Positions 18,599 through 42,416 of a stretch of 64,000 bases of DNA are shown here, piece after piece. The DNA comes from Octopus vulgaris (Eukaryota). Each line of letters begins with the position of its first letter. The stretch's first letter is position 1. Position numbers and translations under genes: made by a program. The notes beneath the pieces are model-generated. The model searched no databases, was not told the DNA's origin, and was given only the letters and a program-made list of their open reading frames with translations. The DNA lies in NCBI GenBank assembly GCA_951406725.2, contig OX597819.1, positions 40,672,001 to 40,736,000 of the forward strand. Direction: 5' to 3'.

Positions 18599-21385
18599 TA
18601 TAGTGGCTGCTGTTGGCTGTTCAAGTGCATTTTATTATATGGAAAAACAGTATGAATCACCATAAGATGTTTACTCTGTGTTCAATTTTTGTGGTGGAAG
18701 CATGTAGTATGATACAAAAACGTGTGTTTACATACAAAGGAAGTTTTAATTTTTGCTTTTGCACTGAAAGAAGTAACACAATATTTGTATTTGTATGCAT
18801 GCATGTGTAGAATGAGAACAGTCATTTTGAGAATGTGTATGTGATAAAATATCTTCGTTTATGAATCATATATCTTATGTTGAGGTGAATAGACATGTGA
18901 GTCACATGTGGGAGATTGCATGTGGAGCTGCAGAGAAGACATGTATCTTTGACTGAGAATGAGGCCGGTGTCTCAGAACGAGGCTACTGTATCAAAGTGA
19001 GGCTAGACACCTCATTGATATATTCATCTGCTGTACAGGTCGACTCACATATTACTATGTAATATGTAGCTCTGCTACATAGCCTCCTGTTAGACTTGAA
19101 AAAGTCGAAAAAAATAGAGTTGGCGTATGTAAATATGCAGTGCAAAAAGCAAGTAAGAACATGGAATACAAATAGAAGGATACAATACAACAAAAAATGA
19201 GAAACTGAAATGAAAAAGCAGAGCTTGGTAAGGGTAAACAGAATATGAACACTAAGAAATGAGCAAAATGTTCAAGTCGATTAGGTAAAGTTCAAAGGAA
19301 TACTGTGAAGAACAAAACTGTGTCGTTGGTGATATGTGTTGAAAAGTCTCTGGTAAGTTCCCAAGTTGTTCATTATAGTTCAGATGTATATAGTTTTAGA
19401 CAGCTTGGTGGGCTGAGTCATAGTGACATATGTAGATGGAGGAGGGGTTGCTGTGTGTGATGGTTGCAGTGGAGTAGCGTTTGCTTTTATGTTGTACTGT
19501 GAATGTGGGAGGTGTATGAGGTGGTATTGTATCACTGTCTGTGTATGCCCGCTTAAGCCTGTCTATTGAGACAGTTTGTGGAGGCACATGGCCTAGTGGT
19601 TAGAGCAGCGACTCGCGGTTGAGGGATTGCGGGTTCGAATCTCAGACCGGGCGATGTGTGTGCTTATGAGCAAAACACCTAAGCTCCACACGGCTCTAGC
19701 AGAAGGTAATGGCAAAACCTTTGCTGACTCTTTCGCCACAACTTTCTCTCACTCTTTCCTCCTGCATCTTGCAGCTCACCTGCGATGGACCGGTGTCCCG
19801 TCCAGGTGGGGAACCTATACGCCAAGAAACTGAGAAACCGACCCTTATGAGCCAGGCATGGCTCGAGAAGGAAAAAAAAAAAAATTGAGACAGTTTCCTT
19901 TTTACCATTAATGTCTATGGTATATAGTTTGTCTGTGTGTGATAGGGTCCTGTGTATAGAGGTGTGAGAGGGATTTTCACAGCATCTTTTTGTAGGAGCA
20001 CATGGGTGCAAGAATCAGTGTCTTTTGGAACTGATGATTTAGAGGTTTGGTGTTGTGTTGACATGGGTGGCAGTTCTTGCATGTATTTGCGAAGTCTGTG
20101 TATGTACATAGTGGGGTCTTGTGTGGACAGATCCACTGGGGCCAGCATCTGGCCTGGCAACGAAAGAGGTGTGCCATAAACAAGTTCTGCTTAGAAATAA
20201 CTGAGATCCTCCTTTATCGAGACTCAACAGCCAAGAAGGACTATTGGAAGATATTCGCTCCAACACTACCGATCTGGGTAAGCACGCAAAGCAGCTTTCA
20301 TTTGATGGTGGAATCATTCCACCATACCTATTTCTTTATTACCCACAAGGGGCTAAACACAGAGGGGACAAACAAAGACAGACATAGGTATTAAGTCGAT
20401 TACATCGACCCCAGTGCGTAATTGGTACTTAATTTATCGACCCCGAAAGGATGAAAGGCAAAGTCGACCACGGCGGAATTTGAACTCAGAACGTAACGCA
20501 GATGAAATACCACAAAGCATTTCGCCTGGCGTGCTAACGTTTCTGCCAGCTCGCCGCCTAAAGGAATAGCTTCTGGCCAATGTGTGAAATGATCAATGCA
20601 AGTGAGCAGGTAGGTATATCCCTGGCTGACTGGCCAACGCCAGACAAGGTTGATGTGTATATGGTTGAATGTGTGTTGAATGTGCCAAGCGGTGCATGAA
20701 TGTGCCTATGCACCTTTGACTTCTGACAAAAGCCGCAAGAGCATAACCAAGCAGTGATGTCTTGTCTCATATTTGGTCAAAAGAATCTAGCCGAAATGAG
20801 TTTCACTGTGGCAGTGACACCAAGGTGTGACAGATTACGCAGTGTGCTGAAGACTGTTTGTGGGTCTCTGGAACAAAAGGACAAGGAGAATTCATAGAAG
20901 TATCGCATAAAATCTGTGCATCAGCTGTGGGTACTGGGAAGTACTTGAAGTTGCATGTGGCAAAGGCGAGTGAGGTTATATTAATTGTCTCTAAGTGAGG
21001 TTGATCTTCAGTCAGGAGATACAGATTGATGTCTGTGGGTGATGACAGCGAATTAAATAGTAGACGCAATAAGGCGTCTGTTGCAGAGTTATCTATACCA
21101 GAGATGTGGTGGATGTTGGTGGTAAATTGGGAAATAAAATCCAAGTGCCTGGTTTCCTGCAGAGAGTACTTGTCAGGCTTCGAACGCAGGGCAAAGGTGA
21201 GTGGATGGTGGTCCGTAAAAATCATGGATTGGCGTCCCTCAGGTGTGTGCTGGAAATGTTTGACTGCTAAATATGTAGCTAACAGCTCCCATCTGTTCCA
21301 GGCTACTGTAGCCAAGCGAATTGATATGTTCATCTGCTGTGCAGGTCGAATCACATATTACTATGTAATATGTAGCTCTGCTACA
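18599..21385 (-). mobile_element. Decayed Ty3/Gypsy LTR retrotransposon (RNase H + integrase remnants; 3' LTR about 18599-19079; truncated 5' LTR about 21322-21385)
   Basis: RNase H: ELLA.YLAVKHF...TDHHPL. Integrase: HPG...CGFC, IDHFTHWPEAIP, GPY, TVSIDRLKRAY. A 60-bp direct repeat at 19019-19079 and 21324-21385 starts TGTAG on the minus strand, with a purine tract before the 3' LTR. Confidence 0.85.
19578..19883 (+). mobile_element. tRNA-derived SINE with polyA tail and 13-bp TSD, inserted in the Gypsy integrase
   Basis: A box tggcctagtgg and B box ggttcgaatc. TSD attgagacagttt at 19565-19577 and 19884-19896. Related heads at about 4688 and 13201. Confidence 0.88.
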
Positions 21386-28051: not shown

Positions 28052-28917
28052 CATCATCATCATCATTTAACGTCCGTTTTCCACGCTAGCATGGGTTAGA
28101 CAGTTCGACCGGGGTCTGGAAGCGATGGAGGCTGCACCAGGCTCTAGTCTGATTTGGCAGAGTTTCTACAGCTGGATGCCCTTCCTAACACCAACCACTC
28201 CTTGAGTGTAGTGGGTGTTTTTTACGTGCCACCGGCACAGGGGCCACAGCAGGCTGGCAAACGGCCACATTCGGCTGGTGCTTTTACGTGTGACCGACAC
28301 GGACGCCAGTCAGGCGGCGCTGGCATCTGCCACATTCGGATGGTGCTTTTTATGTGTCACCGGCACGGGTGTCTTAACTACAATTTCCATTTGAATTTTT
28401 ATTTTGATGTTGATGTACTTGACTCAATAGGTCTCCTCAAGAACAGCAGGTCACTCTATGATCCAAGGTTAGCACAGCAGGCCATCCTGCGAGCCATGAA
28501 CTCACTTCATTTGTCGGGTCTTCGAAGTCACAGCATATCTCCAGAGGTCTCGGTCTTTCGTCATAGCCTCTGTGAGACTCAGAGTACGAAGGTCATGCTT
28601 GACCACCTTGTCCCATATCTTCCTGGGTCTACCTCTACCCTGGATTCCTTCAACAATTTGGGAGTGGCACTTCTTCACACATCTCTCCTCATCCATCCGT
28701 AGTACATGACCATACCAACGCAATCGTCTCTCCTGCACGTTGCATCTTATGTCCACCAATGCTTCTTATGTCCAGCATTTCTCTCAGAGCACTTACACTC
28801 TGTCATGTATGGACACTGACATTACACATCCAGCGGATCATGCTAGCTTCATTTCTTTCAAGCCTACGCATTTCCTCCGCAGTCACAACCCATGCTTCAC
28901 TACCGTGAAGCATGGCA
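28052..28917 (-). mobile_element. RTE-clade LINE 3' end with a (GAT)n tail
   Basis: Encodes QERRLRWYGHVLRM...RGRGRPRKIW...DRDLWR. Its 3' UTR is the same repeat seen at about 11155-11515, 12680-13023, 15846-16365, 21935-22345, 32400-32780, 53112-53305, 54945-55500 and 61783-62040. Confidence 0.85.
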
Positions 28918-30156: not shown

Positions 30157-30885
30157 TAATAATAATAATAATAATAATTGTGTACAGTGCTCAGGTGCAC
30201 TACAACTCATCTAAAGTGTATATATAATCAGGTGTAGTTTCGGCGGATTTCGGAAAGCATGAGGGCCTTAAAAGATGCAGTGTCATGGCAGTCAACAACT
30301 GACGCAGGCAGTTTATTCCATGCTTCAGCAACTCTGAGCGTGAAAAAATGTTTCCGAAAGTCATGGGAGCTGTATTGTTTTCTGACTTTGTAGGCATGTC
30401 CACGTGTGTTAGACACATGGAGATCAAAAAGGTGTTCAGTGTTGTTGTTGGTGAGGTGGTTGATAACTTTGTGGGTGTTTACCAAGTCCGTCGCCAAACG
30501 CCGGAGCTTCAGTGAATCCATGCCCAGGGAAACAAGGCGCTCAGAATATGGTAGGTGTCTGATGGAGGGTATGCGTTTGGTTGCACGTCTCTGGACAGAT
30601 TCCAGGAGGTCAATGTTCTGTGCAAGATAGGGGTTCCAAACTGATGATGCGAATTCCAAGTGTGGTCGTACCATAGCTGTATACAGTTTTAAATAGATGG
30701 CTGGAGAGCGGCTAACAAAAGACCTGCTGAGTGATGCCAAGACACCCTCGGCCTTCCTGACAATCTTAGAGATATGCTTTGACCAACGCAAATCACTGCT
30801 GACAGTGATGCCTAGGTCACGCTCACAAGAGGATTTCTTGATATCAGTGTTGTGGAGGGAGTATGTGAACGCAGGGTTTTTTCTG
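30157..30885 (-). mobile_element. CR1/L2-group LINE 3' end with an (ATT)n tail
   Basis: Encodes ERDLGI.V..DL.W..H, LY..MVRPHLEFASSVWNP, LESVQRRATK, TRGH, FF..RV...WN.LP. Confidence 0.88.
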
Positions 30886-30941
30886 CCTATCCAATACAGC
30901 ACAAAGGAACATGAAAAATTACCTGTGATAATAAACATATT

Positions 30942-31925
30942 GGTTAACGTTTACTTTAACACTTGGCCACCAAAACAAAAAAAAAGTGTAATAGGCGTAA
31001 AAAATGTGTATTAAACAAATATGAAAACAAAAATTTTGTGCTAATAAACTGGGGGGTGGAGAGAGGACTTTCAGCAAATTTTATACAAATACCTTTGAAA
31101 CAGCATAGATGATGATTATAAAGAAATTTGTGTGGAAAATCTTTTCCAAGGGGGTTGGGGAGAGGACTTTCGGAAAATTCACATGATCCGATTTTTCCTT
31201 CATAACTTTTAGAAAAATGGATATCTTGTAATGAAATTTTACACAAAAACCTTTGAAATGGCATAGAACACATGTATCATGGTGAGAGAAACCAAATCAT
31301 AAATACGGCGTTGAATATGGTTTCACTATGGTAAAAAGGTTAAGGGTGATTTAGCTGTTGTTTTTAGCACAACTCCACCATTGAGATCATTTTTTAAAAC
31401 CTTTTTCTATTACTCAAACAAAAAATAAATGAAGGTAAAAATTTTTTTCCAAACCTTTTTTCCATTACACTTACACAAAACAATAATTTATGAATTTCTT
31501 TCTCTTCAAAAGTCGCCTTCCCACACCCTCAGAAAAAATTTTCCCTACACATTTCTATATAATCATAATCTATACCGTTTAAAAGATAAGCATTTTCCTA
31601 AAAGTTATGAGGGAAAAATGAGGGAATTTTCCAAAAATCCTCTTCCCACCCACTTGGAAAAAATCTCCCCCACAAATTTCTTTATAATCATAATTTATTC
31701 TGTTTCAAAAGTATTTATATAAAATTTCATTAAAAGGTATCCATTTTCCTAAAGGTTATGAGGGAAAAAAATCAGATCTTGTGAATTTTCCAAAAGTCCC
31801 CCCTCCCCGGTTTGTTGGCACAAATTTTTGTTTTCATATTCATTGATTACACATTTTTTTAAACACTTATTACACTTGATTTTTTTGTTTGTTTTAGTAG
31901 CCGGGTGTTAAAGTAAACATTAACC
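30942..31925. mobile_element. Non-autonomous DNA transposon with long imperfect TIRs, GG...CC termini and an 8-bp TSD (Merlin- or MULE-like)
   Basis: aacatatt|GGTTAACGTTTACTTTAACAC ... GTGTTAAAGTAAACATTAACC|aacatatt. Inverted similarity extends over 130 bp, with internal sub-repeats. Confidence 0.75.
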
Positions 31926-33120
31926 AACATATTCTATCATTTTTGTATCTTTAACTTGCTTTGGTTATTAGAGTGTAGCCATGCTGGGGCACCACCTTGA
32001 GGAATTTTTAGTTAAATGAATTGACCCCAGGACTTATTTGTTTCCCTTTTGTTTAAACCTGATATTTATTCTATAAGCCTCTTTTTGCTGAGCTGCTAAG
32101 TTACAAGGATGCAAACATACCAACACCAGATGTCAAGTGATGGTGGGGACAAACACTGACACAAAGATACACACGTGCACGCACACACACACACACACAC
32201 ACACGATGGGCTTCTTTCATTTTCTGTCTACCAAATCCACTTACAAGGCTTAAGTTGCCCAAGGTGCCATGCAGTGTAACTGAACCTGGAACCATGTGGT
32301 TGGGAAGCAAGCTTCTTACCACACAGCCAAGCCTGCACCTAGAATGTTTTACACGACTGTATTTCTTGGCATACAAGCAGACTTGGCATATAGTATAAAC
32401 ATCTGTGCCAGTGGCACGTAAAAAGCACCATTCGAGCGTGATCGTTACCTGCGTCGCCTTACAGGCACTTGTGCTGTGGGCACGTGAAAAAACATTCGAG
32501 CGAGGTTGTTGCTAGTTCCACTGGACTGGCTCCTGTGCAGGTAAAAAGCACCATTTGGGCGTGGCCGTTGCCAGTACCGCCAGACTGGCCCTCGTGCTGG
32601 AGGCACGTAAAAGCACCCACTACACTCTCAGTGGTTGGCGTTAGGAAGGGCATCCAGCTGTAGAAACTCTGCCAGATCAAGATTGAAGCCTGATGCAGCC
32701 ATCTGGTTCACCAGACCTCAGTCAAATCGTCCAACCCATGCTAGCATGGAAAGCAGACGTTAAAGAATGATGATGATGATTCACTATCATTCCAAATCTT
32801 GGTGCATTTCATTTGGAATTTTTGGTTCTCCAAAGTTGTCTCAGTGTAGAAATCAACCTACATTTTATGGCTCTAAATTTTGGCCTGAAAAGTCCGACTT
32901 CTATGCCAGAAAATATGGTATATTAGAGAAATTTAATAATAATAATCCTTTTTACTGTAAGCACAAAGCCTGATATTTGAGGGGAGGTGGGGGCTAGTCG
33001 ATTACATCAACCCCAGTACTCAACTGGTACTGGTTAATTAACTAGTATTAGTTCATTTTTATGTAAGAAATTCTTTCTCTTTTTTTCTTTTTTACATTTG
33101 TTTGAACAAGAAATTCCTAC

Positions 33121-33210
33121 CTCAGCAGGGATGTATAAAATAAATCCATCTTCTCCAACATGAGTGAGACGCATTGCTCGAATTCCACTTGCATATCCAA
33201 CATCAACGAC
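33121..33210 (-). CDS. PDPR: PDPR-like exon (VVDVGYASGIRAMRLTHVGEDGFILYIPAE)
   Basis: tttaaag acceptor and gtagga donor. 90 nt, phase 0-0. Confidence 0.92.
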
Positions 33211-33676
33211 CTTTAAAGTAAAATGAAGATAATATGTACAGATACAGGGTTGGCCCCAGGAAGAGTGTTAGGTCATAAAACACTACTACAAAAAGATAAT
33301 CCCTTCCAACCTATGCCAGCATGGACGTAAAGAAGTAATGATGATGATGATGACGATGATGATTACATACATACCTACATAGATCACTGCCGCTGCCATC
33401 ATCATCATATTAATGTCTGCTTTTCCATGTGGTTAGGCTGTTGCACTCACAATCACTAGATTGTGGGTTCAATTCTCTGACTGGGCAGTGTGTTGTCTTC
33501 TTGAGCAAAACACTTCATTTCGTGTTGCTTCAGTCCCACTTTTGATCAGTGAGGACTGTTAGCCTACTTGCCTAGCAGGCAGGGTGGCATCATTTGAAGG
33601 CTAAAACAATGCGAAGGTGCATTGTGACCAGTGATGTATAACAATAGCTGACAGCCTGGTCAGTCACATAATCACA

Positions 33677-33711
<35 letters not shown>

Positions 33712-33794
33712 CAACAATTGAGGGTAAAATTAATTAATTATTAATCAATTTCACCAAGTGTTCAGTATGCAAAGGGACCATTTAAGGCGAATTC

Positions 33795-34108
33795 AAATTA
33801 TTACATTATATAAAGGGCTTAGTAAAATAAATTACTTTGCCGCATACTGAACTCATTAGAAATAGCAGCTAAAAAACTTTTTAAAACTATTTCTAATACT
33901 TAAAGAAAATCTCTCTCATATATGCGTTTGCTTAATTCAACTCACAAAAGTTTTGTGAGTTGAATTAAGCAAACGCTATATATGAGAGAGATTTTCTTTA
34001 AGTATTAGAAATAGCTTTAAAAAAGTTTTTTAGCTGCTATTTCTAATGAGTTCAGTATGCGGCAAAGTAATTTATTTTACTAAGCCCTTTTATATAATGT
34101 AATAATTT
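33795..34108. repeat. Near-perfect 314-bp palindrome with a 1-nt centre at 33950
   Basis: Arms aaattattacattata...ctcacaaaa and ttttgtgag...tataatgtaataattt are reverse complements with only a few mismatches or indels. Confidence 0.95.
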
Positions 34109-34159
34109 ATATATATATATATATATATAAGCGAGAAAGAAGCAACAAGAATGGATAGG

Positions 34160-34251
34160 TTTTTAGTACAATCGTTTCATACAAGGACAGGCTTTATTAA
34201 AAGTTGCAAAAATTACAGCATATAAACGTGTCCCGTACTCATCAGCTAAAA
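34160..34251 (-). ncRNA. Type I hammerhead ribozyme (PLE-associated, short stem III)
   Basis: Minus strand reads UUUUAG-CUGAUGA-[guacgggaca...uguccuuguau]-GAAA-cgauug-UA|CUAAAA. All core nucleotides are present and stems I and II pair. Predicted cleavage between 34167 and 34166. Confidence 0.8.
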
Positions 34252-35703
34252 TACATGTGAGTTCTCTAGACATCCTAGTGGTTGAGGCTATACTCATGAA
34301 GTAATGTAGATAATTAAGTAACATAAACAGATTTCTAAAGTTCATTAAAGTTCATTAAAGATGATGTACAGTCTTATCACAGAATTTTAAAAAAGTTTTA
34401 ATAGCATCACAGAGAAGGTGACCTAATCCATAGTGCACATATGAATTTCCAGAGATATGATGAGGGATTACATACTCACAGAAGACAAATTTATCCATTG
34501 TTAATTACAACGAGGTGGGTTTCAATTCCTGCTTATTAGCATTATAGAGAGGGTGAATTAATCCTTTGTATAGATGCACAATTTCCAATGGTGTAGATGT
34601 AAATTTCCAGAGAAATGAAGAGGAATTTCAAACTCACAGGCGATAAGTTTATCAATGGTTGAACACAATGAGGTAGGTATCAATTCTTGTTATATGATTA
34701 GGTATTTGCCACATTAATCACATTACTGCTATTTACAAGAGGCTGTAGCTATTTAACTTCTAAAGGCTGAAGGGCTTTCTAGAGCGGCAAAAAATGGAAA
34801 AGGGAAGGGAATAGAGGAAAAGAGAGAAAATAAAGGAGGAGGGAGCAAAAAGGGGGGGGGGACTCAAAGAGAAGAGAAAAGGAAAAAGAGAATAAGCAGA
34901 AGGAAAGGAAGAAGAGAAAAGAGAAAGATATAGGGAAAGAAGGGAAAAAAGAAAAAGAAAAAAAGGGTTCTAGTTATACAGAAGAATTAGTAGACGGCAA
35001 GTCTGGTTTTAATTTTCAGGCATCTAGGAACGAGAGGAGAATATTATTCTTTGACCAGTAAAACAGCTAATTTATTGCTGTTGAAATCAGCTATGAATTT
35101 AAAGAGAATCTAAAGAGATAACACAGTCAGGGGTTTTGGGGTCAGATGCTAAAATCACCAGAAAACACATTAGGAAAATCTAGGTATAAACTTATCAAAA
35201 AGTCATTAAAATTTACTTATTTAATTTATTCCTTTTATTGTCTCAAGGAGTTGCCGTTATTATTCATACATTGACGGACTACAGGTCAAATCTTAGAAGA
35301 TCATTTATAAGGTGTTTGGGGATTGTCTATTATAATGAAGATAATCATATTATCACCGAGGGGATAGCCTTATTTATTTAATTTTGAAATAGAATTATGG
35401 GGCTATAGTCACTCATTTTAATTTATTAGAGTTATGCTATTTAAATTAAATTAAGTTAGGAATTAAAATTAAAAATTACAATTAAGATTTAAAATTAAGA
35501 ATTTAAAAATTGTGAGTTTGAAATTAAATAAAGCCTCAATTAAGCAGCCAACAAGTGCTATTCATTTCCCTGTTCTCAAAAAACTGATGCAGATATAAGG
35601 AAAAAGATAACTATAGTGTGAGAACTCTTAGTTATCTACTTAAAGCAATGCTATACTAATAGAAGTCAAGTTATATCTATCTATCTAGTTACGAATATTC
35701 TAA

Positions 35704-36855
35704 TCATTTAAAATATTTTAAAGTCTTCAATTTAGCGTGGACACAAACTTGACCTAGTTCGATATGGTTATTCAATAAGTTTCTATGTTTTCTATGCTTT
35801 ATAATTTCATACGTCTCCATGGAGCACAGTTGACAACCAACCCTACTATTTTTATACGGAAATGCTCTCCTAACTATTTCCCAATTAAGGTTGTAATTTT
35901 TATTATTATTTTTGAGTTCCCAGATTTTGTTTGAAAGTGTGGTGGTACCAGCTTTATGACGTAATTTAAAAGTCGAGATGTGATTTCTAATTCTGGCTAA
36001 AAAATTAATTGTACATCCAATGTAAAAGTATTTGTTATTCTCCGTGGATATGGTACATTTATAGATTACATTATTTTCCCCACATAGACCAGGTGCCGGG
36101 CATTTTGATTTTATTCTACACTTACACACAGGAGGAATAACTTCAGGCTTTGGATTATTCTTGGGTAGATGTTTTAGGTTCTTATTATTTTGATTATCAT
36201 TTCTATAGTTGGTGCTGATATCTAAAGTATTGCTATTATTTATTGATCCTTCTGTTTCATCATTTAGGTCTAAAGTCCTACCATGATTTCTTGTATTATT
36301 GGTAATGTTAATATTATTGTTAGTCTTTTTATCCGACTGCATATTGTTGTTATAGATATCACTAATATTTTCATTCTCCCTATTTTCTCCATTATCCCTA
36401 TTTCTATTATTTCTATTATTAACATTATTACTTCTATTAATATCGGCATTGTTATTATTACTATTAATGTTAATGTTATTAGTCATTCTGTGGTTACTAC
36501 TTTCACCTATGTTTTGATAGTTACTATTGCTGTTTTTATTGTTGGTAGTATTATTATAATTGCTATTAGTAGTATTGTTGGTAGTATTATTATAATTGCT
36601 AGTGGTATTCATGCTGATATTACTATTTTTATTTCTATCTTTCCTGGCTAGTTTAATGTTGTTATTATTAATCTTAGCTATTAAAGTGGACATATTTGGG
36701 AGGGTTGAATAAGAAATTCTAACTGTTTTCCTAGAAATAATTCTATGATATCTATGAGAGATAGGGAAATTTTTTTCCAGAATCACTTTGAATTTGTTCT
36801 GTATATCCGATTGTATCGCACAGTTGAAAGGAATATTCAGCCATAATATAATCAC
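35704..36855 (-). CDS. PLE C-terminal ORF: RT-thumb remnant + Asn-rich insert + Cys-linker + GIY-YIG endonuclease
   Basis: Motifs in order: LWLNIPF...NFPISHRYHRIISRKTVRISYSTLPNM (PLE thumb), CKC-x4-C-x5-C linker, VIY...YIG, RxxNH, LSNKIWELK, W, CQLCSME, LLN, CVH. No RT catalytic core is present. Confidence 0.85.
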   Translation of the reverse strand: MIILWLNIPFNCAIQSDIQNKFKVILEKNFPISHRYHRIISRKTVRISYSTLPNMSTLIAKINNNNIKLARKDRNKNSNISMNTTSNYNNTTNNTTNSNYNNTTNNKNSNSNYQNIGESSNHRMTNNININSNNNNADINRSNNVNNRNNRNRDNGENRENENISDIYNNNMQSDKKTNNNINITNNTRNHGRTLDLNDETEGSINNSNTLDISTNYRNDNQNNKNLKHLPKNNPKPEVIPPVCKCRIKSKCPAPGLCGENNVIYKCTISTENNKYFYIGCTINFLARIRNHISTFKLRHKAGTTTLSNKIWELKNNNKNYNLNWEIVRRAFPYKNSRVGCQLCSMETYEIIKHRKHRNLLNNHIELGQVCVHAKLKTLKYFK

Positions 36856-36962
36856 CCCACATTACTGTATTGTTAAATCAGTATGGTTTTTTTGGGTGCA
36901 TCTAAGTTAGGTACCATATTCAAGTTAATTCATTTAAATTAACTTGAATCTTTATTGCTTTT

Positions 36963-37002
<40 letters not shown>

Positions 37003-37087
37003 ACTAATGTAGGATAAAATTTTTTTCGAAAAAAAATTTTATCAATGGCCAGCATATCAAAAAATACCTTTAAAGGTTGATTTATAA

Positions 37088-37256
37088 ATAGCTTATAAAA
37101 TAAGGGCAAAAGAAAAATTCTAATGCCAAATATGCCGAAAAAAGACAAAATTGTCAATAACCATTATAATTAATTATAATGGTTATTGACAATTTTGTTT
37201 TTTTTTCAGCATATTTGGCATTAGAATTTTTCTTTTGCCCTCATTTTATAAGTTAT
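37088..37256. repeat. Loopless palindrome with arms of about 84 bp
   Basis: Centre ccattataatt|aattataatgg at 37171/37172. The arms are reverse complementary. Confidence 0.92.
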
Positions 37257-37331
37257 ATATATATATATATGTATTCATTTGTGTGTGTGTGCATGTGTAT
37301 GTGTGTGTATACATATTATAATACGTATAGG

Positions 37332-37382
<51 letters not shown>

Positions 37383-37510
37383 GATGATGATGATGATATA
37401 AATATATAGATTCAGATGAATGTGGTACTTAAGTTGAGGCACCAGAATTTAGTATAGTATTATCTATACAATTTAAAATAAGGTGATTAAAATCAAAATA
37501 AGCAACAAGG

Positions 37511-37620
37511 ATATCCAGAGGTAATGCAGTACGATTGTTTCATGCAACTCCATTTAATGATTGCATTGTTCAATTAAATGGAGTCGCATGAAACGATCGT
37601 ACTGCATTACCTCTGGATAT
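37511..37620. repeat. Inverted repeat of a PLE pLTR tail containing the 3' half of a hammerhead
   Basis: atatccagaggtaatgcagtacgattgtttcatgc... pairs with ...gcatgaaacgatcgtactgcattacctctggatat. Confidence 0.85.
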
Positions 37621-37829
37621 GTTGAATCGTTAGCCCCTACACGCAATTTTTTTCTTTTCTGTGTATCTTTCTGTCGAAGAGCGTAGGCTCGAAACGTAAA
37701 ATACTTGTGTTATTTCTATTCCTGAGTGCCATACTAATACATTATTTGTTTGTACTCCACCTGCCTTCGTCTTTTGTTTATTTTCGTAAACCTGCCTTCG
37801 TCTTTTGTTTATTTTCATAAACCTTCCCG

Positions 37830-37863
<34 letters not shown>

Positions 37864-38109
37864 TTACTTATTACTTATTATATTATATTTATCATTCTTT
37901 TTATACTTTTTGGAAAAAAAAAATTAAAATTTTATATATATTATATTAATTATATTTATATTATTTATTATTTATGTATTGGTTTATGTCTATCACTGTT
38001 TGAGTTGCCTAATAGTGGTTTAATTCATATTTTATATATTTATACTGTGAAATTTGATTTAATCCTAAATCTAATTTTTCCCTGTAAGTTTGGAGCCATA
38101 CTCCCTAAT

Positions 38110-38141
<32 letters not shown>

Positions 38142-38176
38142 GGCACTTCAGAACTATATATATTTGGGATATTTAC

Positions 38177-38384
38177 CTTACAAGTCATGAATTTGAAGTC
38201 TGATTTTGTTGTGGAGGCCTCTGTAACTTCAGCAAGAAGTTCTTGGGCATGTGGACCAATCAGAGTGATTGCAGAATACATGGATGTCACATCTCTAATT
38301 TGGATAGAGCCATCTTTTGGGAGGTGCCGTAACAACCATGCCAAACTTTTCGTTTGTTGAGTAGTTGGAGAGATCAGGAAGTAA
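38177..38384 (-). CDS. PDPR: PDPR-like exon (YFLISPTTQQTKSLAWL...DVTSMYSAITLIGP...FMTCK)
   Basis: cttcag acceptor and gtaaat donor. 208 nt, phase 2-0. Confidence 0.92.
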
Positions 38385-39719
38385 CTGAAGAGAAATCAGA
38401 GAAGCAAAATTAGTTAAATGAAAATAATAATAATAATAATAATCCTTTCTACTATAGGCACAAGGCCTGAAATTTGTGGGATGGGGGTTAGTTGATTACA
38501 TCAACCCCAGTGTCCAACTGGTATTTATTTCATTGACCCCAAAATGATGAAAGGCAAAGTTGACCTCAGTGGAATTTGAACTCGGAACGTGAAGACTGAC
38601 AAAATACTTCTTAGCATTTAACCTCTGTGCTAACAGTTCTACCAGTTCACCACCTTAATATTATTATTATTATTATTAATAATAATCTTTTCTACTATAG
38701 ACACAGGGCCTGAAATTTGAGGGAAGGGGCTAGCTGATTACAGCAACCCCAGTGCTCAGCTGGTACTTGTTTTATCAACTCTGAAAGGATGAAAGGCAAA
38801 GTCAACCCTGGCTGAATTTGAGCTCAGAACCTAAATATGGATGAAATGCCGCTATACATTTTGTATGGCATGCTAACAATTTTGCCAGCTCACTGCCTTA
38901 ATAATAATAATAATAATCCTTTCTGCTGTAGGCACAAGGCCTGAAATTTGTGGGGAAGAGTTGAGTTGATCACATCGACTCCAGTACATGACTGGTACTT
39001 AATTTATCAACCCTGAAAGGATGAAAGGCAAAGTTGACCTTGGTGGAATTTGAACTCGGAACATACAATTGCTAAGCATTTTGCCTGGTGGGCTAATGTC
39101 TCTGCCAGCTCACCGCCTTATGGTTTCACATTTTGGCACAAGGCCAGTAAGTTCAAGGGAGTGTTTAAATCATTTACATTAGCCCCAGTGTTCAACTGAT
39201 ACTTATTTTATCAGCCCCGAAAGGATGAAAGGCAAAGTCGAGATGAGTGGAATTTGAACTTAGAATGTAAAAATAAATGAAATGCCACTAAGAATTTTGT
39301 CCGGTGTGCTAACAATTCTGCCAGCTCGCCACTAAACAATAATTGTTGTTGTTAGACAGTGAGCTGGCAGAATTGTTAGCACACTGGAACTAATGCATTT
39401 CTTCTGGCTATGCATTCTGAGTTCAAATTCTTCTGAAGCTAACTTTGCCTTTCGTCCTTTTGGAGTCAATAAAAAAAAAACGTAGCAGTCATGCTGTTGT
39501 ATTCCATTTCACTTTTATATTGTTGTGTCTGATGTTCTTTGCATATTTCATATGTGTGTTGTGTTGAATATGTGTTGTGTATATGTTGAGTCATAGTGTT
39601 GTGTTGATTTTGTACAAAATAGCATCATTAGTATGGTGTTCTATTGTCAGTATGAAACACTATGTCCGAGTAATGAAAGATTGAGTAGTCAAGGTCATAA
39701 TAGTATAAAGCATATGCAG

Positions 39720-40130
39720 TAATGTACAACTGTCTGGGAAGTGAACAGTGTATGAGTTAGATACATGCTTGCGTGTGTATGGAGGGGAGAAAATCAGGTG
39801 TAGTGTTGGCGAATCTCAGGAAGCATGGAAGTTTTGAAGGATGCAGTGCTCCAACAACTAACAACTGATGCCGGCAGTCTGTTCCATATTTCAGCAACTC
39901 TTAGTGTGAAAAAATGTTTCTGAAAGTCATGGGAGCTGTGTTGCTTTCTGACTTTGTAAATGTGTCCACGGGTGTTAGACAGGTGAAGTTTGAAAAGGTG
40001 CTCAGAGTTATTGTTTGTAAGATGGTTAATAATTTTATGGGAGTCTGCCAAGTCAGCTGCCAGACGTCGGAGTTTCAATGTGTCCATGCCCAGGGAAGTA
40101 AGGCATACAGAATATGGCAAATGCCTGATG
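39720..40130 (-). mobile_element. Shorter copy of the same CR1-type LINE 3' end
   Basis: Encodes IRHLPYS...LKLRRLAADL...TRGH...FFTLRVAE.WN.LP. Confidence 0.82.
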
Positions 40131-40398
40131 AAATACCTTTGGTCACAGGTCAGCTTGAACACAACTGACCTGGTGGTGGTGGTGGTGAAGAAGAAGAAAA
40201 AAGAATTGAGAGACGAACTGGTAGCAGGAGGAAGAGGAGAGGAAGAATTGGAGGAGGAGAGAAGAAGAAGAAATAATAGTAGTAGTAGTAGTTTACAGAA
40301 AATCTTTGGTAATGATGGTAGCACAATCTTTACATTTTCAGTTGTCATAAAAATTAAAAAACATGGTATGGTATAAATAAGTAGATAATAATTCTTAC

Positions 40399-40547
40399 TA
40401 ATTTTCACTCAACCGTGCCACACTACAGTCATTTTCGTAGCCTCCAAACTCATTTTGCATTCCTGTATTTACAACAGTACCAACATCAAGATCGACATCA
40501 TTTGAACATAGATACTGTAAAAAGTTAGCAGCTTCTTGGTTGGCAGA
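40399..40547 (-). CDS. PDPR: PDPR-like exon (SANQEAANFLQYLCSNDVD...TGMQNEFGGYENDCSVARL)
   Basis: atttcag acceptor and gtaaga donor. 149 nt, phase 0-2. Confidence 0.92.
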
Positions 40548-41309: not shown

Positions 41310-42416
41310 GTGCAGTGAATAAACTGTTATCTAAATCATGCAAAAATGAAAATAACACTCACATCTCATTCTAACAGATATATTCACCAAAATTACATAA
41401 AAATATCTTGAAATACTAAAGAGTAAATTTATTTAATAAAATCGCCATTAGCTTCAACCATGGCTTCCAGATGACTTCAGAATCTACTGCAACTCTTCTG
41501 GACGGTCTCCTTGTTTAAGTTGCTGAATGTTGCCATAATCCTTGCCGTCAGTTCATCTTTGGTGTTACAAGGAGTTTTGTTGGTTTCTTGCTCAACTGTG
41601 CCCCACACATAATAATGAAGGGGGCTGCAGCCTGGGATGTCCAAATGTTAGGGATGATGTGGTAGCACACTGGAACTAATGCAGAATCCTTTAGAGCAGT
41701 GGCTCTGCATCCCTTTTACCATATGACATTACAAACAACCCCTTTCCATGTTTTGACCTCCCAGTAAAGACTGCTTTATTTTCTTATACTATCTCATGCA
41801 GCATGTGCCTATTTTCAGATATTTCTCTGAATTAGTACTGCTTAACAATAAGTGCCTAATTAGAAATATTGTCTATAGGTCTAACGTCCACACTAACCTG
41901 AATATTTTTACCTATATAGGCTCCACATCTTTTTCACTCAGCCATGAGTGGGTTCTCCTGCTTGTGTGGTATGGTGCAGAGTCTCGTTGCCAGACATAGG
42001 GTGTTCCAGCAGCCACCCTCTTGACCCAGAACAGCATTATCTCCTCCAGGCACTTGATGTAGGCCTCTGTGTTGAGTCTGATGGCGTGAGGGAAGATGAA
42101 TGGAAGCATAATGTCGCCATCACTATTGATCACTTCAAACACAATGATGTTGACTGGATGTTTGATTTTTATCACTCTCGGTACATGTTCTCAGATTGCA
42201 CTGTCCTCAGATCGACACCCAAACAATCTGAAATGTTCAAATTGAAGCTTCCAACGCAAATGCCAAGCAGTACAGCATGTTGTTTCCAAATTTCTGGCAG
42301 TGTGAATTGTGTCATGGTGCTTATCTGACCCTACTATACTGTGTAGTCAACAAAATCAACTACACATGCGCGAAATTAAAAATATAAAATGGCGACAATT
42401 TACCCATTGCACCCTG
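41310..42416 (-). mobile_element. Second copy of the DD37D Tc1/mariner remnant, interrupted at 41663-41938
   Basis: Colinear with 56413-57278. Ends ...ttacccattgcaccctgTA. Confidence 0.8.

What the first reader, a model, noticed from the sequence alone, without database searches (positions are those of the whole stretch)
33680..37862. (TA)n-delimited stack of Penelope-like modules: endonuclease ORF, ribozyme and hairpins in one PDPR intron
Seen: six (TA)n tracts (about 33680, 34110, 36965, 37255, 37340, 37831) divide 4.2 kb into modules. One module carries a GIY-YIG ORF plus a hammerhead. The others are short tails that end in or consist of fold-back palindromes (33795-34108, 36918-36949, 37088-37256, 37511-37620) or carry hammerhead-like motifs. 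Established: PLEs encode RT plus GIY-YIG, carry hammerheads in their pseudo-LTRs and often insert with inverted terminal segments. Inference: several distinct microsatellite-targeting PLE or retrozyme-like families have inserted repeatedly into one (TA)n site, and the loopless hairpins are footprints of snap-back self-primed second-strand synthesis. This may be a poorly described cephalopod ribozyme-hairpin retroelement system.
Basis: partly seen in the sequence, partly recalled or inferred. Interest (0 to 1): 0.75.

Follow-up and report, generated by a model that had tools for sequence, protein, structure and literature searches.

The report
Penelope retroelement pile-up in TA repeat
Five shortened jumping-gene pieces, mostly of known kinds, sit stacked in one TA repeat inside an intron, and their mirror-image shapes likely arise because both cut DNA ends start copying the element's RNA at two different fixed points, not because one copy folds back on itself.

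Summary
In detail: six (TA)n tracts, four palindromes, a GIY-YIG-type frame and one canonical hammerhead lie in one intron of a PDPR-like gene. The stack holds five high-copy families. B is a 5'-truncated, young Hydra-clade Penelope-like element (PLE) whose full-length copies encode RT plus endonuclease. E1 is the 3' stub of an older sister element. A and C are stubs of 544- and 471-nt non-coding hammerhead units (retrozyme-like). E2 is a one-armed repeat with a degenerate hammerhead. Hydra PLEs in (TA)n, including one from Octopus, inverted arms and one-sided tails are all in print. Simple snap-back is not supported. Of 52 head-to-head B junctions, 42 pair one 'long' with one 'short' 3' end and none pairs two short ends. 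The short arm reaches further 5' in 21 of the 42, and the window copy's two arms share only a TATA. The 36918-36949 hairpin is template-encoded. Best reading: both ends of a (TA)n break prime on one RNA at two fixed sites, and the cDNAs are joined. This scan reached that reading before on other DNA. Added here: a zero-overlap case, 79-121-nt tails, and an untemplated G at 32 of 42 short ends.

The parts
38177..38385 (-). Host exon upstream of the intron (GCV_T positions 103-170); left limit exact, right limit approximate
   Evidence: donor GT at 38176
33121..33210 (-). Host exon downstream of the intron (GCV_T positions 167-201)
33680..33707 (.). (TA)14, left boundary of the stack
33708..33953 (-). 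Module A long arm: 3' part of a 544/545-nt tandem hammerhead unit, ending at the family's long site
33951..34107 (+). Module A short arm, inverted; ends about 87 nt before the long site; TTT shared at the junction
34108..34129 (.). (TA)11 between A and B
34130..36850 (-). Module B short arm: 5'-truncated Hydra-clade PLE body, ending at the short site
34161..34251 (-). Type I hammerhead motif of B's pseudo-LTR (CUGAUGA, GAAA, 6-bp stem I)
   Evidence: hammerhead pattern found in 70 of 76 B loci
35704..36849 (-). C-terminal 376-codon part of the PLE ORF: thumb end, Asn-rich insert, CxCx5C linker, GIY-YIG endonuclease; RT lost by 5' truncation
   Evidence: (87% identical to residues 579-954 of a full-length copy)
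36847..36964 (+). Module B long arm: the 118-nt tail alone, inverted; joined to the body through a shared TATA (36847-36850)
36918..36949 (+). Template-encoded 13-bp stem-loop inside the tail, present in other copies
36965..37000 (.). (TA)18 between B and C
37001..37171 (-). Module C long arm: 3' part of a 471-477-nt hammerhead unit, with a template stem-loop at 37013-37045
37172..37256 (+). Module C short arm, inverted, no spacer; ends at the family's short site
37254..37404 (.). (TA)8, TG-rich simple repeat, (TA)22 and a GAT run: mixed microsatellite between C and E1
37405..37558 (-). Module E1 long arm: 3' end of an older Hydra-type PLE
37555..37620 (+). Module E1 short arm, inverted; holds the 3' half of the hammerhead (37590-37607); TAAT shared at the junction
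37617..37830 (+). Module E2: one-armed high-copy repeat with a hammerhead-like fold at 37666-37703 (core CUGUCGA) and a 31-nt tandem at its 3' end
37831..37862 (.). (TA)16, right boundary of the stack

Best explanation
The 4.2 kb is a pile-up of five high-copy mobile families in one intronic (TA)n tract (a young truncated Hydra-clade Penelope-like element, a stub of an older sister element, two retrozyme-like hammerhead units and a one-armed repeat), and the back-to-back arms were likely made by both ends of the cut (TA)n priming reverse transcription on the same RNA at two fixed start sites. Shown: the family identities, the (TA)n ends, two fixed 3' ends per family 79-121 nt apart, one long plus one short end per insertion, and arms that match each other better than they match other copies. 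Inferred: (1) the GIY-YIG domain cuts both strands of (TA)n; (2) each ...TATA-3' end pairs with a UA-rich site on uncleaved RNA, one end at each site; (3) the trailing cDNA either stops at the short site (the window's B) or displaces the leading cDNA; (4) the two cDNA 3' ends are joined by microhomology or a short filler and prime each other's second strand; (5) each insertion leaves (TA)n on both sides, which renews the target. A and C would borrow a PLE enzyme; which one is unknown. The identity part I hold at about 0.95, the priming mechanism at about 0.7.
For: Identity: B copies are 88-99% identical. Frames of 949-957 aa from the Met with RWK, DKT, YRDD and CxCx5C occur in 7 fetched copies, matching the Hydra diagnosis. 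E1 lies downstream of a Hydra-type endonuclease 46-59% identical to B's. Arms: 52 head-to-head junctions, 42 long+short, 0 short+short. The 5 scored long+long are tandem read-throughs. Second arm short in 13 of 13 two-armed E1 loci, 8 of 10 for C and 4 of 4 resolved for A. Short arm further 5' in 21, long arm in 11, within 15 nt in 10 of 42; in the 20 position-ordered loci 8, 4 and 8. Arms differ at 4 of 4000 nt within insertions against 0.96% between insertions. A G replaces the template T at 32 of 42 short ends, in all three classes (17 of 21, 7 of 11, 8 of 10), while the long arm reads T in 41 of 42: one chemistry at the short end whichever arm is longer. Junctions: 18 overlap, 6 blunt, 18 filler. 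In vitro, an anole PLE cuts and extends both strands and starts at two internal sites that bracket the tail (PMC11167929).
Against: No biochemical test on these families. Near-symmetric junctions are in excess (10 of 42 against 1.0 by permutation); snap-back predicts this too, although run-off at a shared RNA 5' end also would. A snap-back lariat resolved by a nick at the short site can also give a longer short arm; only the G signature and the in vitro data argue against it. In vitro, start sites did not differ between strands and were not homologous to the cut DNA, so pairing of TATA with the RNA is my inference. Close arm identity shows one source locus, not necessarily one RNA molecule. 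22 of the 42 come from loci chosen for a long body. 10 of the 52 junctions were not simple long+short. E2 shows no inverted arm in 13 of 13 loci, so the mechanism may not cover it.
Confidence: 0.7

Rival explanations
1. One cDNA folds back on itself (snap-back, or self-priming on an antisense template as proposed in PMC3846280), and endonuclease resolution of the intermediate leaves the tail on either arm.
For: Ten of 42 B junctions are symmetric within 15 nt against 1.0 expected. Module A's junction fits a fold-back with 3 shared bases. Arkhipova 2013 reads junction palindromes as self-priming. Craig 2021 ascribes the one-sided tail to endonuclease resolution.
Against: Without a resolution step it cannot give the 21 of 42 cases with the longer short arm, nor the window's B and E1. 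With one, the short junction would form by two different chemistries, yet the same untemplated G appears in 17 of 21, 7 of 11 and 8 of 10. Module C has no spacer, which a folded strand cannot easily have. Two internal RT start sites on both strands are shown in vitro.
Confidence: 0.2
2. Both target ends prime, but on two separate RNA molecules (or two pseudo-LTR copies of one tandem transcript) held by a protein dimer.
For: The anole protein is predicted to be a dimer. Tandem sources exist (L076, L081, L160). A template whose 3' end already carries the G could explain the G.
Against: Arms match within insertions far better than between them (16 of 20 identical over 200 nt against 56 of 325 pairs), so two RNAs would have to come from one locus. 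Two free RNAs give no reason for the one-long-one-short rule.
Confidence: 0.07
3. The palindromes are fold-back sequencing or assembly artefacts, or two independent insertions that landed head to head.
For: I have no raw reads across the locus; the run search listed only contig-level runs.
Against: Arms in the window differ at 1-4 positions plus gaps. The same family-specific long and short ends recur at dozens of unlinked loci. In the 42 long+short B junctions the arms overlap or are at most 17 nt apart, which leaves no room for a long (TA)n between them, and the arms share their variants.
Confidence: 0.03

Closest known systems
Hydra-clade Penelope-like elements, including Hydra-1_Obim of Octopus bimaculoides (Craig et al. 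2021, PMC8557442; section 11, passages and supplement rows seen)
   Same: One ORF with RT and C-terminal GIY-YIG; RWK, DKT and CxCx5C present; no Cys pair between GIY and YIG; CxxC and CxH near the end; hammerhead; (TA)n targets.
   Different: B's unit is about 4.7 kb, where Hydra elements are described as generally under 3 kb (Hydra-1_Obim 2507 bp), owing to Asn-rich inserts and a 1.7-kb 3' UTR. Its hammerhead differs from that listed for Hydra-1_Obim, and by eye the visible protein stretches are related but not the same family (not aligned).
Complex insertions of endonuclease-bearing PLEs with inverted pseudo-LTR and one-sided tail (Pen2a_Av, PMC3846280, passages seen; Fig. 2 legend of PMC8557442)
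   Same: Inverted 5'-truncated arm, palindromic junctions, tail at one end, tandem pseudo-LTRs (L081 has the full textbook layout), Asn-rich ORF inserts.
   Different: Tails are 79-121 nt here against 30-40 bp in print. The papers invoke self-priming or endonuclease resolution; the counts here favour priming from both target ends.
Poseidon element PAc of Anolis carolinensis (PMC11167929; parts 1-2 of 4 read)
   Same: Two internal start sites bracket the tail; both strands are cut and extended; AT-rich targets; hammerhead cleavage is not needed.
   Different: Another clade. The paper reports no homology between start site and target, and the parts read do not link the two sites to the two arms of one insertion.
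Metazoan non-LTR retrozymes (PMC7229834, passages; bioRxiv 10.64898/2026.07.22.740005, part 1 of 5)
   Same: A and C are non-coding, low-GC (33%, 31%) closed units with a type I hammerhead; A forms tandem arrays 99.5-99.9% identical.
   Different: Units of 544-545 and 471-477 nt exceed the 150-450 bp described. Cleavage and circular RNA are untested. They insert with PLE-type long and short arms.
LINE-1 twin priming (recalled, not read)
   Same: The window's B has the same geometry: the 3'-most piece in one orientation, the adjoining upstream piece inverted, joined at a microhomology.
   Different: In L1 the internal primer site is variable and inversions are a minority. Here both sites are fixed, two-armed insertions are common and the arms usually overlap.

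Membership tests
Hydra-clade PLE (module B) | Single ORF with RT and C-terminal GIY-YIG endonuclease | tested here: met
   Frames of 949-957 aa from the Met in 7 fetched copies. The Atlas links residues 130-520 to RVT_1/HTH_animal clusters and the end to GIY-YIG. Pfam and PDB found nothing. The window copy has lost the RT.
Hydra-clade PLE (module B) | RWK motif and DKG changed to DKT | tested here: met
   Both present in 7 of 7 long frames checked and in the protein printed; definition.
Hydra-clade PLE (module B) | Linker CxCx5C; CCHH motif absent; CxxC and CxH around the conserved E and N | tested here: met
   CKCRIKSKC, a single Cys between VIY and YIG, CQLC and CVH in the window frame; definition.
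Hydra-clade PLE (module B) | Canonical hammerhead in the pseudo-LTR | tested here: met
   Pattern scan. Rfam gave no hit, the minimum-energy fold of the monomer is not the active fold, and cleavage is untested.
Hydra-clade PLE (module B) | Insertion into (TA)n | tested here: met
   30 of 30 position-ordered tail ends against 5.6% of flank positions; 412 exact short ends run straight into TA.
Hydra-clade PLE (module B) | Placement in the Hydra clade on an RT tree | not tested
   Reference proteins were seen only as cut text in the supplement and were not loaded.
Hydra-clade PLE (module E1) | Hydra-type endonuclease upstream of the hammerhead end on the same strand | tested here: met
   L198 holds CNCSVKSYC and an endonuclease 50-53% identical to B's, about 1.7 kb upstream of the E1 end; 6 of 20 loci show the domain, all decayed.
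Hydra-clade PLE (module E1) | RT with RWK and DKT in the same element | tested here: inconclusive
   Only one decayed RT-side hit (L204, other strand) in 20 loci; no full copy fetched.
Endonuclease-bearing PLE insertion layout | Tandem pseudo-LTR, inverted 5'-truncated arm, tail at one end | tested here: met
   the tail is longer than the published 30-40 bp.
Non-LTR retrozyme (modules A, C) | Tandem units, each with a type I hammerhead | tested here: met
   A: arrays of 544/545-nt units, hammerhead in 12 of 14 loci. C is weaker: one natural 471-nt repeat (L048) and hammerhead-pattern hits in 5 of 14 loci.
Non-LTR retrozyme (modules A, C) | Non-coding and low GC | tested here: met
   Longest stop-free stretch 77 aa (A) and 57 aa (C); GC 33% and 31%.
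Non-LTR retrozyme (modules A, C) | Unit of about 150-450 bp | tested here: not met
   544-545 and 471-477 nt against the range; filed as retrozyme-like only.
Non-LTR retrozyme (modules A, C) | Self-cleavage and circular RNA monomers | not testable with these tools
   Needs RNA work.
PLE-type hammerhead element (module E2) | Conserved core CUGANGA and two-armed insertion | tested here: not met
   Core CUGUCGA in the commonest form (7 of 13 loci); no inverted arm in 13 of 13 loci. Left unclassified.

The most novel reading that the evidence does not exclude
PLE integration is obligately two-ended: two RT centres load on one uncleaved RNA at two sites that bracket a structured 79-121-nt tail, one per target end. 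Every palindrome, inverted arm and one-sided tail follows from where the two cDNAs stop. The same platform is used by 471-545-nt retrozyme-like RNAs. In family B, initiation at the short site leaves an untemplated or slipped C as first base, a telomerase-like initiation slip that can be read from the genome.
Probability: 0.45. Interest if true: 0.65.

Novelty: new member of a known kind. Interest (0 to 1): 0.33.

Why it matters
As a locus it is ordinary: known element classes piled into a microsatellite. Its use lies in the mechanism. How PLEs make tandem, inverted and tailed insertions is stated as open in PMC8557442 and PMC11167929. This young family offers hundreds of near-identical insertions (437 exact tail ends; 1077 exact matches just upstream of the short site), a strict one-long-one-short rule, a zero-overlap case and a one-base initiation signature. 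Together these give sharp predictions for the existing in vitro assay. It also ties retrozyme-like RNAs to PLE-type integration in this genome.

Tried and rejected
Rfam found no hammerhead in 32000-40000, only sub-threshold matches, mostly miRNA families, on the hairpins. Pfam missed both the window frame and a full-length ORF, and the PDB gave no hit. An endonuclease-only element was considered and rejected: other copies continue into RT. A fold-back origin for 36918-36949 and 37013-37045 was rejected: both are template stem-loops. No ORF was linked to A, C or E2 in the loci held; flanks were mostly 1.5 kb, so a distant master is not excluded. A special stacking tendency was tested: another of the five families lay within 300 nt in 6 of 128 loci (70 kb), against 7 hits in 242 kb further out, about threefold. 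The families were chosen from this stack, so no probability for a five-fold stack is claimed. Sequencing runs: 24 listed, all as contigs, no RNA holder listed; no reads were laid, so this is no evidence either way and the read check stays open. The representative-protein search did not run. Literature: searches listed no paper whose title or abstract start applies twin priming to PLE arms (only listings seen for most). The library lacks most subscription papers, including Evgen'ev and Arkhipova 2005 and Arkhipova 2006, and bioRxiv supplements are closed. The O. vulgaris repeat paper (PMC13282606, passages) has no mention of hammerheads or retrozymes in its main text.
Full report
Observation. 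The six (TA)n tracts, the four palindromes, the 385-codon minus-strand frame and a type I hammerhead at 34161-34251 are present as described. The hammerhead was the only hit of my pattern scan in the window, and 0 of 200 shuffles of the region gave one; Rfam did not detect it. The stack lies in a phase-0 intron (33211-38176) of a minus-strand gene whose exons match DAO, FAO_M, GCV_T and GCV_T_C. One exon matches DMGDH and aminomethyltransferase structures weakly. PDPR is plausible but was not separated from its paralogues. The host species was not determined.

Modules. Searches of the own genome show five families: A (1390 first-look candidates, best copies 97-99% identical), B (2510, up to 99%), C (1722, 92-96%), E1 (1934, 94-97%) and E2 (4899 candidates for the joint E query, 87-92%). 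Only 40 candidates are scored per search, so these are not copy numbers. Exact patterns give 437 B tail ends, 412 short ends running into TA and 1077 matches just upstream of the short site. By best-copy identity, E2 looks oldest and A and B youngest; this order is an inference.

Module B. Other copies continue beyond the window's 5' limit into an RT with YRDD. Seven fetched copies hold frames of 949-957 aa from the Met (L076, L081, L156-L159, L161). The protein has RWK, DKT, a CxCx5C linker, no Cys pair inside the GIY-YIG core, and CxxC and CxH near the end. These are the features that define the Hydra clade, almost all of whose families insert into (TA)n (PMC8557442 section 11). That paper's supplement lists Hydra-1_Obim from Octopus bimaculoides. 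Pfam and the PDB miss the protein, but the ESM Atlas links its parts to RVT_1/HTH_animal and GIY-YIG clusters. L081 has the textbook layout: (TA)n, inverted pseudo-LTR, palindrome, direct pseudo-LTR, ORF, pseudo-LTR with tail, (TA)n. Asn-rich inserts like B's are described in rotifer PLEs. The unit is about 4.7 kb, longer than described for Hydra. No tree was built.

Other modules. E1 copies carry a long AT-rich upstream region and, in 6 of 20 loci, a decayed Hydra-type endonuclease 46-59% identical to B's in the longer matches (one copy with an internal gap 30%); L198 has domain and E1 end on one strand. E1 is therefore the stub of an older sister element. A is the 3' part of a 544/545-nt unit found in arrays 99.5-99.9% identical, with a canonical hammerhead in 12 of 14 loci and no frame above 77 aa. 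C is the 3' part of a closed 471-477-nt unit with a hammerhead. Both work like non-LTR retrozymes but exceed the described size, and their RNA is untested. E2 has a fixed 3' end on TA-type microsatellites, a hammerhead-like fold with the core CUGUCGA and no inverted arm in 13 of 13 loci; I leave it unclassified.

Targets. 30 of 30 position-ordered B tail ends are followed by at least three TA units, against 5.6% of flank positions. Another of the five families lay within 300 nt in 6 of 128 loci, about three times the rate further out. Stacking fits a target that each insertion renews; no special property of this site is shown.

How the arms form. Each two-armed family has two 3' ends: a short site and a long site 79-121 nt downstream, both UA-rich in the template. 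The tails fold well in B (z -4.45) and A (z -2.88), and weakly in C and E1 (z -1.97, -1.64). Of 52 distinct head-to-head B junctions in 107 loci examined (overlapping loci counted once by junction), 42 pair a long with a short end and none pairs two short ends. Five scored long+long because one arm reads on into a tandem copy, and five had an end elsewhere. Of the five read-throughs, three have long+short outer ends, one ends 20 nt before the short site and one leaves the locus. A first pass on fewer loci gave 37 of 46, with 20 loci showing no inverted pair in view. The second arm is short in 13 of 13 two-armed E1 loci, 8 of 10 C loci (one cut by another repeat, one unresolved) and 4 of 4 resolved A loci; in these sets one arm was long by choice of query. 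In B the short arm reaches more than 15 nt further 5' in 21 of 42, the long arm in 11, and 10 are symmetric (1.0 expected by permutation); the 20 position-ordered insertions give 8, 4 and 8. A cDNA that folds back can only copy what it holds, so simple snap-back fails for half of the insertions. The window's B is the limit case: the long arm is the tail alone, and shares only TATA with the body. E1's 14-nt spacer also lies in its short arm. Arms within an insertion differ at 4 of 4000 nt, against 0.96% between insertions, so both come from one source. Junctions show overlap in 18, blunt joins in 6 and filler in 18. At 32 of 42 short ends a G stands where the template and the partner arm read T, in all three classes. 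This points to one initiation chemistry at the short site; its cause is unexplained.

Mechanism. The reading that fits all of this is priming from both ends of the (TA)n break on one RNA, one end per site, followed by joining of the two cDNA ends. It agrees with the in vitro finding that an anole PLE cuts and extends both strands and starts at two internal sites that bracket the tail. Strand displacement by the trailing RT, pairing of TATA with the RNA and the joining step are inferred. The excess of symmetric junctions is compatible with run-off at a shared RNA 5' end, but also with snap-back. A snap-back intermediate resolved by the endonuclease (the view) is the main rival.

Artefact. No reads were laid, so that check is open. 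The window's arms differ by 1-4 substitutions plus gaps, and the family-specific ends recur at many unlinked loci, which a fold-back chimera would not give.

Novelty. The element classes, the (TA)n bias, the inverted arms and the one-sided tail are in print. My searches listed no paper that applies two-ended priming to PLE arms, but the library is incomplete. I wrote that reading down; later look-ups showed that this scan had reached it several times, on shark DNA and on other pieces of this genome. A look-up by this protein's sequence found nothing. What this locus adds is a Hydra-clade example with counts, long tails, a zero-overlap case and the G signature. Verdict: new members of known kinds, with a testable mechanistic clue; interest 0.33.

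Noticed in passing
L033:1237-2625: Beside a two-armed A insertion, about 180 bp of left host flank reappears on the right side three times, once direct and twice inverted, separated by (TA)n. It may record synthesis running into the target flank.
   Followed up: partly
L004:4436-5311: A 292-codon frame with a weak Myb/SANT-like match (E 5.7e-05, below Pfam's cut-off) and a poly-Q stretch starts just downstream of a B copy.
   Followed up: partly
window 36893-36922 and 37417-37446: The tails of B and E1 share TAATCACC at the short site and a UGGUGC-N11-GUACCA stem followed by UAUUCA (family form; the window's E1 has one change), seen by eye; a possible conserved enzyme-binding element.
   Followed up: partly
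L066:5870-5900; L158:1266-1340: Two B insertions have a long arm of only 14 and about 72 nt, so some apparently one-armed copies may hide a minimal second arm.
   Followed up: partly
window 20803-21357 (-): Remnant with an RT_RNaseH match (E 8.1e-06), likely a decayed LTR retrotransposon piece in another intron.
   Followed up: partly
window 30228-30950 (-), 39794-40408 (-), 28502-28765 (-), 41912-42190 (-): Frames that look like LINE RT ends and a mariner-type transposase piece (recalled resemblance; Pfam gave no match for the two tested).
   Followed up: no
window 38425-39062 and 39300-39388: A 242-bp repeat of 2.7 copies and a short hairpin with about 30-nt arms inside a common repeat, next to the stack.
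   Followed up: no
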